NCBI RefSeq assembly: GCF_006345805.1
Contig: NC_043011.1
Span: 12,028,001-12,092,000, forward strand
Reading direction: 5' to 3'
DNA from: Octopus sinensis
Lineage: Eukaryota
Length of the DNA: 64,000 nt
A program made the position numbers. Below are positions 53,201 through 56,200 of the stretch, piece after piece (within the stretch, counting starts at the first letter, position 1; every line of letters begins with the position of its first letter).

Positions 53201-56200
53201 TGTAGAAGCAAGGATTAGAATCTTAGGGCCTGAGAGTCAACCTAGCAAAAACCAAAGTCTTAATAAGTAGGAAGGCAGACAAACTACAAATCCATTCAGA
53301 TAGATGGCCCTGCTTGATCTGTAGAAAAGGTGTAGGTAGAAACTCCATAAGATGTACCCAGTGTAAGCTATGGACACATAAGAGGTGCAGCAATATCAAA
53401 AGAAGGCTAACTGGGAAGATACATTTTGTGTGTGGCGAATGCTCAGGAGCAATAAACAATGAAAACATGCAGAGAACAGCTTCCGTCACATTCCAGCGGG
53501 AAAAATTAGTAGTTGATAGCTTCTGTTACCTCGGTGACCAAGTCAGTAGCTGGGGTGGATACTCTGAAAGTGTAGCTGCTAGAGTAAGGATAGCCCAGGC
53601 AAAATTCAGGGAGCTCCTACCTCTGCTGGTGACAAAGTGCCTCTCGCTCAGAGTAAAAGGTAGACTGTATGATGCATATGTGCAAACAGCTATGCTACAT
53701 GGCAGTGAAACATGGGCCGTGACTGCTGAGGGCATGTGTAAGCTTGCAAGGAATGAAACCAGTATGCTCCACTGGTTGTGTAATGTCAATGTGCATACAT
53801 GCCAGAGTGTAAACGCCCTGAAAGAAAATTTGGACTTAAGAAGCATCAGATGTGGTGTGCTGGTATGGTCATGTGGGGAGAATGGATGAGGATAGCTGTG
53901 TGAAAAAGTGCCACACCCAGGTTGAGGGAACCTGTTGAAGAGGTAGACCCAAGAAGACCTGGGATGAGATGGTGAAGCACGACCTTCAAACATTGGGCCT
54001 CACCGAGGCAATGACAAGTGACCGAGACCTTCGGAGAAGTGCTGTGCTTGAGAGGACCCAGTAAGTCAAGTGAGACCATAACCATAGCCTATGCCAGTGC
54101 TGTATAATCAGCCCATTTAAGAGTAGCCTTCAATCATTGGACAATGAACTATGCTTGTGAAGACCTGTTGAGGCAAGTGAAATCGCTGTCATGGCCAATG
54201 ACAGTACTGCCTGATTGGCACCTGTGCCAGTGGAACGTTAAAAGTACCATTCGAGGGTGATCGTTGCTGGGGCCGCTGACTGGCTCCTGTGCAGGTGGCA
54301 CGTAAAAAGCACCATTTGAGCATGGCCATTGCCAGTACCACCTGACTGGCCCTCATGCCAGTGGAACGTAAAAGCACCCACTACACTCTTGGAGTGGTTG
54401 GCGTTAGGAAGGGCATCCAGCTGTAGAAACTTTGCCAGATCAGATTGGAGACTGGTGCAGCCTTCTGGCTTGCCAGACCTCAGTCAAACCGTCCAACCCA
54501 TGCCAGCATGGAAAACAGATGTTAAACGATGATGATGATGATATATATATATTGTGTAAAAGGAGGCATTCAAAATTTTGTATGATTTTTTTTATTAGTG
54601 CTTTTGTTCATTTTTCAAACTTATCAAGACAACATCAAAATCAAAATGGTAAAAACATTGTTTCGTTGTTCATCTATATGAATCGGATGCTTTTTTGCTT
54701 TATTTATAAGAGGAGAAAGTGAAGCAACTTGGCAGGAGTGGGGTGAATAGACAGAGAGAAAAAGGTTTCAGGGCAATCAAGAAAGAGGAGAGAAAATAAT
54801 AAAAGATGGGGGAAAGGATAGATAGATAGATAGATAGATAGAGACAGACAGAAAGGTTTCTTTTCAATTTGATGTGATCTATTCATTGAAATTTCATTAC
54901 AAAGCATTTTTCTTTTTTAATTCTCCTTTTTTCTTTCCATTGTATACATATCAACATTTGGAAATAGGATGGAAACAATATGAAGAAAAGATGGGAGGGT
55001 GCTGTCATCACTGAAAAATAAAAAAGAGTTGAAAGTCCTATGAAAATGTATATTCCTTTACACTTGTATAGTCAAGTCCCATATTCTTTGTAATTTCATG
55101 TTTTGCATGAACAAATATAAAATATTAGTACAATATGTATTGCTTCGGCAATACATATACTAAAATTGGTAAGATACAGAGAAGATTAGCATGGCCCCTG
55201 TTCAAGGATGACATGCAAATTTGTGAAGCATTCCATATTTTCCAACGGCGGTGCATCAGCATGGCTGCAGCTCTGAGCTGAAACGAAAAAAAACAAAATT
55301 CACAAACTAGAAAAGCACTCGAAGAGTGCAGACATCTGCCAAACCAGCAGGAGTAGCACTACGACGACAACCACCACCACTACCACCATATCACAATCAC
55401 CACCACAACTATCCTACCACTATCACCACCACTACCGCAACCACCAATATCATCAGCAGCATTGTCATTGCGTCCGCTTCAACCACATACACCACCATCA
55501 ACGTTATCATGACGGTTACCTTGACAGTCACTTTCACCACCACAACCAGTATAACCACTGCAATACCACCATCACACAACCAACACTATCATCAACACCA
55601 CTATTTTATGTCAGCTCTAACACACTTTTGGGATCTTTTCGGTTTGAACAGCAGTTTTTAACATAATTTCTAGGTAATTAAAAAATTTTAAACTTCGTAT
55701 ACTGGTAGAATGTGTTTATAAAACATCTTTTTCTCTTGGCTTTATTGAGAAAATTCTATAGTTTGTAAGATATTTGTTGTTTTTTTTTCTTCAATTTCTG
55801 CAATTTCAACCAATCAGTGACATCTATTGAGGTAAAAAAAACATTCTGTGCCATATGAATATGTTCCTCGTAAAAGAAACAGATTGGGTTTATTTACATT
55901 TGTGAAGAAAAAAGGATACCCTTCCCCCCACCCCTAATCCTAAAACAGATTGAAATGGAATACATCGATACGAGGGTCATAATTATGGGTGACAATTTCA
56001 TATGACACTGCTAGAAAAAACTGCCGTTCAAACCGAAAAGATCCGGTTGCTGTAAGTAAAGTGAGAGTCAACAACAATTTCAATGTTGAATTTAGTGTGA
56101 AGAGAGTTCATCATGATTCAGTTCACATCTCCCTCTGATTCATTATTGTCTTACAAACTGTCATGGAGGGGTTTAACTCTTTTGTTACCAGTGTGGGTGG

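What the first reader, a model, noticed from the sequence alone, without database searches (positions are those of the whole stretch)
55137..55293. U6 snRNA-LINE tail chimeric retrocopy
Seen: a full-length U6 ending CCATATTTT is joined directly to about 45 nt matching the CR1-group LINE 3' tail (14309-14354 minus), then A8. Established: U6/L1 chimeras arise in mammals by template switching or RNA ligation during retrotransposition. Inference: an equivalent chimera made by a non-L1 LINE in an invertebrate, and a possible seed of a U6-derived SINE if multi-copy. No clear TSD could be assigned.
Basis: partly seen in the sequence, partly recalled or inferred. Interest (0 to 1): 0.7.

Follow-up and report, generated by a model that had tools for sequence, protein, structure and literature searches.

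The report
U6 snRNA fused to LINE tail
A mutated copy of the spliceosomal U6 RNA is joined end to end to the short two-hairpin tail that this genome's LINE and SINE retroelements share, most likely as a one-off by-product of retrotransposition of a kind already described in vertebrates.

Summary
Rfam places a full-length U6 at 55137-55242 (102.6 bits, model 1-105). Its T4 end (55238-55241) runs without a spacer into a 43-nt module (55242-55284), then G and A8 (55286-55293).

The module belongs to a 3'-tail family with 12 copies in the window: one LINE 3' end, one deleted LINE-like element and ten tRNA-type SINE copies or relatives. A covariance model built from the other 11 tails finds the U6 tail at 44.7 bits, E 2.3e-10. 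The family folds into two adjacent hairpins. The second hairpin shows compensatory changes between families.

The most likely reading is a single-event U6/tail chimera, made by template switching or RNA ligation and then reverse-transcribed by a 3'-tail-specific LINE. This is not proven:
- The only TSD candidate is 6 of 7 bases, with a 5-11% chance expectation.
- No empty site or genome-wide copy count could be obtained.
- The donor could be a SINE rather than a LINE.
- The "CR1-group" label is untested.

U6 chimeras with L2, RTE and their SINEs are already published for platypus and lizard (PMC4476161). This is therefore a new member of a known kind, possibly the first from an invertebrate.

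The parts
55137..55241 (+). Full-length U6 snRNA-derived segment. The 5' stem-loop is intact and the ACAGAGA and AGC motifs are present. There are 5 mismatches at strongly conserved consensus positions.
   Evidence: Rfam RF00026, 102.6 bits, model 1-105/105. Mismatches were read off the cmscan alignment.
55238..55241 (+). T4 run, the U6 3' end or pol III terminator remnant. The junction with the tail lies between 55241 and 55242.
   Evidence: Sequence. Rfam aligns the U-run here.
55242..55284 (+). 43-nt retroelement 3'-tail module, made of a short leader, two hairpins and AAAC.
   Evidence: CM R1, built without it, scores it 44.7 bits, E 2.3e-10. It matches the LINE tail at 14309-14354(-) at 35 of 45 columns.
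55246..55267 (+). Tail hairpin 1: 8 pairs with one bulge on each side and a 4-nt loop.
   Evidence: MFE fold of 55242-55293, -17.3 kcal/mol, z -2.69. The same helix appears in the family consensus and in the whole chimera fold.
55268..55280 (+). Tail hairpin 2: 5 pairs (CAGCU/AGCUG) and a 3-nt loop.
   Evidence: Two of its pairs change on both sides between families.
55285..55299 (+). A-rich 3' end: G, A8 (55286-55293), C, AAAAT.
   Evidence: Sequence. Two of the 8 main-type SINE copies also end in plain poly(A) after the module.
55130..55136 (+). Candidate 5' copy of a target-site duplication (ACAATAT). Its partner, ACAAAAT, is at 55293-55299. The evidence is weak.
   Evidence: 6 of 7 bases match at both boundaries. 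Chance expectation is 4.9% (all window 7-mers), 7.5% (random loci) and 11.3% (AT-rich 7-mers).
55116..55124 (+). TATAAAATA at -21 to -13 relative to U6 +1. This is too close for the usual type-3 pol III spacing, so it is taken as chance in AT-rich DNA.
   Evidence: Sequence. The expected spacing (TATA near -30) is recalled knowledge and was not tested.
14309..14354 (-). 3' tail of a LINE, the closest relative of the U6 tail in the window. It is followed by an (AATC)n-like end.
   Evidence: CM score 52.4 bits (training member).
14462..14546 (-). Last ~28 codons of the LINE ORF (...VFKMKLDLFLFRCPR*), cut off by the N gap at 14547-14646.

Best explanation
This is a chimeric retrocopy made in a single retrotransposition event.

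1. A mature U6 snRNA, ending in its oligo-U, became joined to the last ~45 nt of a LINE or partner-SINE transcript. That stretch holds the two-hairpin 3' module recognised by the reverse transcriptase of this genome's 3'-tail-specific ('stringent') LINEs.
2. The join arose in one of two ways. Either the reverse transcriptase had copied the tail and then jumped to the 3' end of U6, or the two RNAs were ligated beforehand.
3. The cDNA was integrated by target-primed reverse transcription. This left U6 (sense, full length), then the tail, then an A-rich end.
4. The copy has no usable promoter and has since accumulated substitutions. It is a dead by-product, not a gene.

Shown: the parts, their order, the direct junction, and the tail's membership in the tail family.
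Inferred: that it was a single event, which enzyme did it, and which join mechanism applied.
For: 1. The U6 is full length and in sense orientation, and it stops exactly at its T4. The next base starts a complete tail module.
2. The tail is a true family member. A model trained on the 11 other tails scores it 44.7 bits, E 2.3e-10.
3. The family forms two adjacent hairpins, with 96.5% of 144 cells paired against 18.8-42.7% when partners are slid by 1-3 columns. Two pairs in hairpin 2 change on both sides between families: UA:8/CG:3 and CG:8/UA:2. The U6 tail alone folds the same way (-17.3 kcal/mol; 1 of 200 shuffles as stable), and so does the whole chimera. The fused piece is therefore the functional recognition unit, not a random fragment.
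4. An independent tail insertion landing within about 5 nt of the U6 end in the same orientation is unlikely. From 11 other tails in 64 kb on two strands, my arithmetic gives roughly 4e-4.
5. The copy looks non-functional. It has 5 mismatches at strongly conserved consensus positions (alignment), and its TATA-like motif is at -21 rather than about -30 (the expected spacing is recalled).
6. There is published precedent (PMC4476161, passages read). In platypus, 40 of 47 analysed U6 copies are joined to short L2 or Mon-1 pieces, with TSDs of only 1-9 bp in 72.5% of them. Anolis has U6 chimeras with L1, L2, RTE and AnolisSINE2.
Against: 1. No convincing TSD brackets the unit. The best candidate is 6 of 7 bases, with 4.9-11.3% chance expectation.
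2. No empty orthologous or paralogous site was available. Both flanks (54550-55136 and 55300-55628) are unique in the window.
3. The 3' end is A8, not the (AATC)n end of the closest LINE tail. No element in the window has the same tail; the best match is 78%. The donor family is therefore unseen.
4. Deleting 55242-55299 would leave U6 followed by T5. A pre-existing U6 copy hit by a short tail insertion therefore gives an equally tidy pre-insertion site.
5. Structure statistics are modest. The number of pairs with two-sided change (2) is reached by 197 of 500 shuffles, and further pair types by 415 of 500. The LINE tail's own fold is not better than shuffles (z -0.50, 58 of 200).
6. The U6 substitutions could come from a variant source gene rather than decay. 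No reference U6 of this species was available.
Confidence: 0.62

Rival explanations
1. This is one copy of a multi-copy U6-headed retroposon or SINE family. An ancestral U6/tail chimera became a master copy and was amplified repeatedly by the LINE that recognises the tail.
For: - The architecture, a small-RNA head plus only the minimal LINE tail, is that of a simple SINE. The tail is cut just 4-5 nt 5' of hairpin 1, at about the point where the different families in the window begin to resemble each other. That fits selection for the minimal unit.
- The U6 part carries several substitutions that could be family-diagnostic rather than decay.
- snRNA-headed SINEs (SINEU, with U1/U2 heads) exist (PMC4494074, passages).
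- Table 1 of a 2026 Octopus vulgaris repeat annotation lists SINE classes 'U' (1 family, 19 recent insertions, 13,954 bp) and 'U-L1' (1 family, 2 insertions, 353 bp) without discussing them (PMC13282606).
- Internal T4-T5 runs occur in accepted SINEs, and pol III termination is context dependent (PMC4758252, passage).
Against: - Only one U6-like sequence occurs in 64 kb, against ten copies of the tRNA-type SINE and its relatives.
- U6 genes depend on upstream promoter elements. [quoted passage not shown]
- The T4 lies between head and tail, so a pol III transcript would tend to end before the tail.
- It is unknown whether the octopus 'U' and 'U-L1' classes have anything to do with U6 or with this organism. 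The supplements were closed.
Confidence: 0.15
2. Two independent events produced the arrangement. A U6 gene copy or tail-less U6 pseudogene was already here, and a severely 5'-truncated LINE or SINE copy (~45 nt plus A-run) later inserted next to its terminator.
For: - Removing 55242-55299 restores U6 followed by T5 and unique sequence.
- 5'-truncated tails are common debris, and tails are dense here: 12 in 64 kb.
- This LINE group may leave very short or no TSDs. L2 in platypus leaves 1-9 bp, so the lack of a tail-only TSD does not exclude this reading.
- A T-run followed by A-rich DNA could be a favoured nick site (inference).
Against: - No TSD sits at the tail's own boundaries. The best matches (AAGCATTC / AAGCACTC) lie 9 nt and 20 nt away from them.
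- The insertion would have to start exactly at the end of the U6 oligo-T and in the same orientation, about 4e-4 by density (arithmetic).
- The U6 lacks correctly spaced TATA (spacing recalled) and has 5 changes at conserved positions. It is not obviously a resident gene, and its own origin would then need a second retrotransposition without any tail.
Confidence: 0.18
3. The resemblance is a chance match or an assembly artefact that places U6 next to a tail-like string.
For: There is an assembly gap elsewhere in the window (14547-14646), and repeats are dense.
Against: - U6 scores E 1.4e-25 and the tail E 2.3e-10 from a model that never saw it.
- The motif is expected 0.00 times in shuffles.
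- There is no N and no repeat boundary at the junction, and both flanks are unique sequence.
Confidence: 0.02

Closest known systems
U6-L2, U6-Mon-1 (platypus) and U6-L2, U6-RTE, U6-AnolisSINE2 (Anolis) chimeric retrocopies (Doucet et al. 2015, PMC4476161; passages read)
   Same: - U6 in sense orientation is fused to a short 3' piece of a stringent, 3'-tail-specific LINE or of its partner SINE.
- TSDs are very short or unassignable.
- The proposed route is template switching during reverse transcription.
   Different: - Those cases are vertebrate. In platypus nearly all U6 parts are 5'-truncated (one full length), whereas here U6 is full length.
- The 3' end here is an A-run rather than the LINE's simple repeat.
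Mammalian U6/L1 chimeras (Buzdin 2002 as cited; PMC11838501 passages; Moldovan 2019, PMC6789731, search listing and start of abstract only)
   Same: A full-length sense U6 is joined at its oligo-U to the 3' end of a LINE in one insertion. The join is explained by template switching or by RtcB ligation of U6 to another RNA.
   Different: - L1 is poly(A)-dependent ('relaxed'), and the L1 parts vary widely in length.
- Here the fused part is just the structured recognition module of a tail-specific LINE.
- There is no long TSD and no L1-type TTTT/A site evidence.
SINEU (snRNA-headed SINEs of crocodilians and birds; Kojima 2015, PMC4494074, passages read)
   Same: An snRNA-derived head with a retroposon tail. 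The paper proposes an origin by a single template switch to an snRNA.
   Different: - SINEU heads are U1/U2 (pol II genes), not U6.
- SINEU is multi-copy, with subfamilies and shared internal deletions. Copy number here is unknown, with 1 in the window.
The tRNA-type SINE family of this window and its partner LINE tails (the shared-tail principle; CR1- and L2-tailed bivalve SINEs in PMC4824008, passages)
   Same: The same two-hairpin 3' module with compensatory changes, followed by AAAC and a simple or A-rich end. It is presumably read by the same reverse transcriptase family.
   Different: - The head is U6, with no internal A and B boxes, instead of a tRNA-like head.
- There is no body region.
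- The tail sequence is 61-73% identical to the SINE tails.
MINE (WEIRD-MGL) chimeric retroelements of Magnaporthe (PMC2104539, passages read)
   Same: A non-mammalian, non-L1 LINE makes chimeras in which a full-length non-coding RNA is fused to a 5'-truncated LINE or SINE 3' part.
   Different: - The host is a fungus and the RNA is a 1.1-kb transcript of unknown function.
- The LINE parts are 230-5461 nt.
- The TSDs are clear, at 10-20 bp.

Membership tests
U6 spliceosomal RNA (Rfam RF00026), sequence family | Covariance-model score above the curated gathering score over the full model | tested here: met
   102.6 bits against gathering 44; model 1-105/105; E 1.4e-25.
Functional U6 gene | Intact invariant core positions | tested here: not met
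   There are 5 mismatches at upper-case (strongly conserved) consensus positions in the cmscan alignment. Further CG to TG/CA changes occur in the 3' part. ACAGAGA, AGC and the 5' stem-loop are kept. No same-species reference U6 was available.
Functional U6 gene | Upstream type-3 pol III promoter (PSE plus TATA at fixed spacing) | tested here: inconclusive
   The only TATA-like motif is at -21 to -13, while the expected position is about -30 (recalled). The PSE consensus for this lineage is unknown to me and could not be tested.
LINE-mediated U6 chimeric retrocopy | Sense U6 ending at its oligo-U, fused without a spacer to the 3'-terminal part of a LINE or partner SINE | tested here: met
   T4 at 55238-55241 is followed directly by the tail module at 55242-55284. 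Tail membership: E 2.3e-10 from a model built without it.
LINE-mediated U6 chimeric retrocopy | The 3' part reaches the element's very 3' end (tail repeat or A-run) | tested here: met
   The module runs through the conserved CUGAAAC and is followed by G and A8. Two of 8 main-type SINE copies end the same way. The end differs from the (AATC)n of the closest LINE.
LINE-mediated U6 chimeric retrocopy | One target-site duplication bracketing U6 and tail together | tested here: inconclusive
   ACAATAT (55130-55136) against ACAAAAT (55293-55299), 6 of 7 bases. Chance expectation is 4.9-11.3%.
LINE-mediated U6 chimeric retrocopy | An empty site at an orthologous or paralogous locus showing a single insertion | not testable with these tools
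   The flanks are unique in the window.
SINE / snRNA-headed retroposon family (SINEU-like) | Many copies with independent flanks that share the junction | not testable with these tools
   There is 1 U6-like sequence in the window. A genome-wide search was impossible.
SINE / snRNA-headed retroposon family (SINEU-like) | A head able to drive its own transcription through the tail | not tested
   From knowledge and PMC4494074, snRNA genes use upstream promoters. A T4 lies between head and tail. T4 is not always a terminator (PMC4758252).
CR1-clade LINE (as partner or donor) | Reverse transcriptase placed in the CR1 clade by phylogeny | not testable with these tools
   Only about 28 codons of the ORF remain before the N gap at 14547-14646. 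No other copy of this LINE is in the window. The C-terminal FK..LD..L motif resembling CR1/L2-group ends is recalled, not tested.
Stringent (3'-tail-recognising) LINE/SINE tail module | A conserved 3' stem-loop shared by LINE and SINE, maintained by compensatory changes | tested here: met
   - 12 pairs in 2 helices; 96.5% of cells paired, reached by 3 of 500 shuffles; slid controls give 18.8-42.7%.
- Covariation score is 0.192 against 0.144 (0 of 500 shuffles reach it).
- 2 pairs have two-sided changes, but that count is reached by 197 of 500 shuffles.

The most novel reading that the evidence does not exclude
This locus is one member of a propagating U6-headed SINE in a cephalopod. It would be a retroposon whose head comes from a type-3 (external-promoter) pol III gene and whose tail is the minimal two-hairpin recognition module of a CR1/L2-like LINE. 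That would make it the first U6-derived SINE and a natural test of how a head without an internal promoter can be amplified.
Probability: 0.12. Interest if true: 0.6.

Novelty: new member of a known kind. Interest (0 to 1): 0.3.

Why it matters
If the single-event reading is right, it extends U6 capture by tail-specific (non-L1) LINEs from amniotes to a protostome. That supports the view, already argued from vertebrate and fungal data, that template switching or RNA joining to abundant small RNAs is a general property of non-LTR reverse transcription and a route by which new SINEs acquire tails.

The more useful practical product is the tail itself. The window shows a compact two-hairpin 3' module shared by at least one LINE, a deleted LINE-like element and two SINE subfamilies, with compensatory changes in the second hairpin. 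The U6 chimera delimits about 43 nt as enough to have been carried through retrotransposition once.

In itself the locus is a decayed pseudogene with no expected function.

Tried and rejected
- **Genome-wide junction count.** The searchable DNA collections are bacterial/archaeal genomes, phages, plasmids and E. coli, so none was used.
- **Second U6 or paralogous empty site in the window.** blastn-short with the U6 gave only self plus matches of 14 nt or less. The flanks 54550-55136 and 55300-55628 have no other copy.
Nothing lies at the boundaries.
- **Whole-unit TSD.** The 6-of-7 candidate was rejected as evidence after controls gave 4.9%, 7.5% and 11.3%.
- **LINE clade.** The ORF is cut by the N gap, which was not filled. 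Pfam on 10 other ORF pieces of the window gave only RVT_1 (29.1 bits, just under the 29.6 cut-off), PHD (22.7, under 24) and two weak chance-like hits. Six of the 10 gave nothing, and none bears on this LINE.
- **Other RNA families near the locus.** Only a sub-threshold lncRNA match turned up (22 bits against 45). ARAGORN found no tRNA in the window.
- **Literature.**
  - A 17-nt SINE-tail string was found in 0 papers.
  - 'U6 snRNA + chimeric + CR1 + template switching' returned 1 paper, Doucet 2015.
  - A six-term search for invertebrate or mollusc U6 chimeras found 46 papers holding at least 4 terms. Of the 12 listed, none concerned U6 chimeras in invertebrates by title or abstract.
  - 'derived from U6' + SINE found 7 papers, 5 listed, all mammalian.
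  - From these searches alone I found no printed invertebrate case. This is a weak negative.
- **Supplements.** The supplements of PMC13282606 (octopus 'U' and 'U-L1' SINE classes) and of PMC4476161 were closed and may bear on copy number and junction details.
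Full report
**What is there.** At Rfam gathering thresholds the 64-kb window has a single RNA-family hit. It is U6 spliceosomal RNA at 55137-55242(+), 102.6 bits against a gathering score of 44, E 1.4e-25, covering model positions 1-105 of 105 (repeated). The copy starts with an intact 5' stem-loop, keeps the ACAGAGA and AGC motifs, and ends in CCATATTTT (T4 at 55238-55241).

The next base opens a 43-nt stretch (55242-55284), followed by G, A8 (55286-55293), C and AAAAT.

**The tail is real, and it is a shared module.**
- A motif taken from the tail has 6 matches in the window, against 0.00 expected in 100 dinucleotide-preserving shuffles.
- A looser scan returned 14 hits for its first pattern, of which 12 are tail modules. 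The other two, at 57404 and 54325, belong to an unrelated repeat.
- The 12 modules are:
  - the U6 tail;
  - the 3' end of a LINE at 14309-14354(-), whose ORF end (...VFKMKLDLFLFRCPR*) abuts the N gap at 14547-14646;
  - a LINE-like element at 30262-30312(-);
  - eight copies of a tRNA-type SINE;
  - one diverged SINE subfamily copy at 50578-50628(-).
- A covariance model built from the 11 other tails, leaving the U6 tail out, finds 55243-55292 at 44.7 bits, E 2.3e-10, over the full model. This is the only non-training hit below E 0.01; the next is 16.3 bits, E 0.048.
- Over the 45 module columns the U6 tail matches the LINE tail best (35 of 45). The LINE-like element follows with 32 of 44, and the SINE tails have 27-32 of 44.
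- The match is mosaic. Hairpin 2 is LINE-like (17 of 19, against 8-12 of 19 for SINEs). Hairpin 1 is slightly more SINE-like (16-17 of 20, against 15 of 21).
- The actual donor is therefore a family member not present in the window. It could have been a LINE or a SINE transcript.

**Structure of the tail.**
- RNAalifold on the 12 tails predicts two adjacent hairpins with 12 pairs.
- Counting that structure gives 96.5% of 144 cells paired, a value reached by 3 of 500 shuffles. Sliding the partners by 1-3 columns gives 18.8-42.7% paired.
- The covariation score is 0.192, against 0.144 ± 0.015 for shuffles (0 of 500 reach it).
- Two pairs in hairpin 2 change on both sides between families: UA:8/CG:3 and CG:8/UA:2.
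- The evidence has limits. The count of such two-sided pairs (2) is reached by 197 of 500 shuffles, and the count of further pair types by 415 of 500. Hairpin 1 varies only through G-U wobbles.
- Single-sequence folds:

| Tail | MFE (kcal/mol) | z-score | Shuffles as stable |
|---|---|---|---|
| U6 tail | -17.3 | -2.69 | 1 of 200 |
| Main-type SINE tail | -17.8 | -3.77 | 1 of 200 |
| Diverged SINE subfamily tail (50578-50628) | -16.7 | -2.01 | 6 of 200 |
| LINE-like element | -17.1 | -1.59 | 11 of 200 |
| LINE tail (14300-14354) | -14.7 | -0.50 | 58 of 200 |

  The four tails other than the LINE tail adopt the two hairpins alone. In the LINE tail's minimum-energy fold a 3-pair outer helix additionally encloses them.
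- In the fold of the whole 157-nt chimera, the U6 5' stem-loop and both tail hairpins persist (-42.1 kcal/mol, z -1.94).
- A shared structured 3' tail is the hallmark of 'stringent' LINE/SINE partnerships. This is established knowledge. Passages read describe it for L2 (PMC4476161) and for CR1- and L2-tailed bivalve SINEs with compensatory changes (PMC4824008).

**One event or two.** I found none at the tail's boundaries; the best similar strings lie 9 and 20 nt away from them.

For the whole unit there is one positioned candidate. ACAATAT directly abuts U6 +1 (55130-55136), and ACAAAAT lies at the end of the A-run (55293-55299), matching at 6 of 7 bases. Controls show such a match is not rare:
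- 4.9% of all window 7-mers match the real downstream 25 nt with at most 1 mismatch;
- 7.5% of random loci do so at the same spacing;
- 11.3% of AT-rich 7-mers do so.

This is not strong evidence either way. In platypus, TSDs of U6-L2 chimeras are only 1-9 bp and were found in 72.5% of 40 cases (PMC4476161).

Both flanks are unique in the window, so no paralogous empty site exists.

Three indirect arguments favour a single event:
- **Exact abutment.** The tail starts at the base after the U6 oligo-T, in the same orientation. With 11 other tails in 64 kb on two strands, an independent start within about 5 nt has a density-based chance near 4e-4. This is my arithmetic and it ignores any target-site preference.
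- **The U6 looks dead and promoter-less.** It has 5 mismatches at strongly conserved consensus positions and several CG to TG/CA changes (alignment). Its only TATA-like motif is at -21 to -13 rather than about -30 (the usual spacing is recalled, not tested).
- **Precedent.** In genomes ruled by tail-specific LINEs, U6 retrocopies occur essentially only as chimeras (PMC4476161 conclusion).

Against this, deleting 55242-55299 leaves U6 followed by T5. A two-event history therefore gives an equally tidy ancestral site.

**Mechanism proposed.**
1. A mature U6 RNA was joined to the last ~45 nt of a LINE or partner-SINE RNA.
2. The join arose either when the reverse transcriptase, having copied the tail, jumped to the 3' end of U6, or by prior RNA ligation of U6 to an RNA fragment. 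The first is the template-switch model (PMC4476161; PMC4494074). The second is the RtcB model of PMC6789731, of which I saw only the search listing and the start of the abstract.
3. The enzyme that recognises the two-hairpin tail carried out target-primed reverse transcription.

The parts and their order are shown. The single event, the join mechanism and the enzyme are inferred. The A8 end, rather than the (AATC)n of the nearest LINE, is unexplained in detail. However, 2 of the 8 main-type SINE copies also end in plain poly(A) straight after the module.

**Is it a SINE seed?** This was not testable here. Points against:
- Only 1 U6-like sequence occurs in the window, against 10 tRNA-type SINE copies and relatives.
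- snRNA genes use upstream promoters, and no internal one is reported (PMC4494074).
- The T4 lies between head and tail.

Points for:
- The fused piece is just the minimal module.
- snRNA-headed SINEs exist (SINEU, with U1/U2 heads).
- Internal T4-T5 runs occur in accepted SINEs (PMC4758252).
- Table 1 of an Octopus vulgaris repeat annotation lists SINE classes 'U' (1 family, 19 recent insertions) and 'U-L1' (1 family, 2 insertions, 353 bp) without comment (PMC13282606). Its supplements were closed. My recollection that the SINE resembles octopus SINEs is only that.

**Comparison with what is known.** The closest described cases are the U6-L2/Mon-1 chimeras of platypus and the U6-L2, U6-RTE and U6-AnolisSINE2 chimeras of Anolis (PMC4476161). 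They share the logic of a stringent LINE or its SINE, a short 3' piece and tiny TSDs. The differences here are:
- a full-length U6;
- a different tail family;
- an A-run end;
- a presumably invertebrate host.

Mammalian U6/L1 chimeras share the full-length sense U6 but use a poly(A)-dependent LINE (PMC11838501). Fungal MINE elements show that non-L1 LINEs outside animals also make such chimeras (PMC2104539). A primate repeat derived from U6 (Hasnaoui 2009) I saw only as a reference-list entry.

My searches turned up no invertebrate U6 chimera in print. That is a weak negative.

**Verdict.**
- The most likely reading is a single-event U6/tail chimeric retrocopy (0.62). The rivals are two independent events (0.18) and a copy of a U6-headed family (0.15).
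- Novelty: a new member of a known kind.
- Interest: modest (0.3).

**Left unchecked.**
- Genome-wide copy number.
- Orthologous loci.
- The LINE's clade.
- The species' own U6 genes and promoters.
- The supplementary tables of the two papers named above.

They would not have borne on this question.

Noticed in passing
window 1191-1229(-), 15579-15617(+), 27328-27366(+), 28163-28201(+), 30130-30170(+), 34011-34049(-), 38551-38589(+), 50027-50065(-); diverged relative 50586-50624(-): An abundant tRNA-type SINE of about 350-400 bp, with A/B-box-like head motifs, an internal (TA/TG)n stretch and the shared two-hairpin tail. Six of the 8 main-type copies end in (AAGAGTAA)n-like repeats and 2 in plain poly(A), which hints at two modes of 3'-end formation or mobilisation. 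ARAGORN calls none of the heads a tRNA.
   Followed up: partly
window 55631-56044, 20553-20970, 46484-46907, 51335-51752, 26362-26777, 4944-5372, 10062-10468: A 415-bp MITE-like element with about 29-bp terminal inverted repeats, in seven copies 89-94% identical. One lies only about 330 bp 3' of the U6 chimera.
   Followed up: no
window 54190-54550, 57127-57600, 59945-60440, 37197-37506, 23500-23761, 24536-24680, 29349-29524, 39982-40135: Another dispersed repeat containing internal tandem units of about 60 nt, with 8 or more copies 72-92% identical. One copy ends about 590 bp 5' of the U6.
   Followed up: no
window 30262-30312(-) and 30654-30929(-): A tail-family member whose second hairpin has a UUCG loop and whose end is (ATTTAAGG)n. 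It sits about 350 nt downstream of an endonuclease-like ORF fragment and may be an internally deleted LINE. Its hairpin supplies part of the compensatory-change evidence.
   Followed up: partly
window 12500-14300 and 14547-14646: About 1.8 kb of (TATA/TACA/TATG)n-type simple sequence lies directly 3' of the LINE end. A 100-N assembly gap cuts the LINE ORF. The gap was left as it is.
   Followed up: no
window 7011-9106(+); 53227-53886(+) and 16117-16401(+); 47408-47719(+): Debris of other LINEs:
- an RT fragment (RVT_1, 29.1 bits, just under the cut-off) in a run of ORFs ending with a Cys-rich motif;
- two related pieces with a PHD-like finger (22.7 bits, under the cut-off);
- an ORF end that I recall as RTE-like, for which Pfam gave no match.
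   Followed up: partly
window 55330-55600(+): ACC/CCA-rich low-complexity DNA immediately 3' of the chimera, with a weak internal repeat (55391-55461 against 55528-55600, 74%). Its origin is unknown.
   Followed up: no
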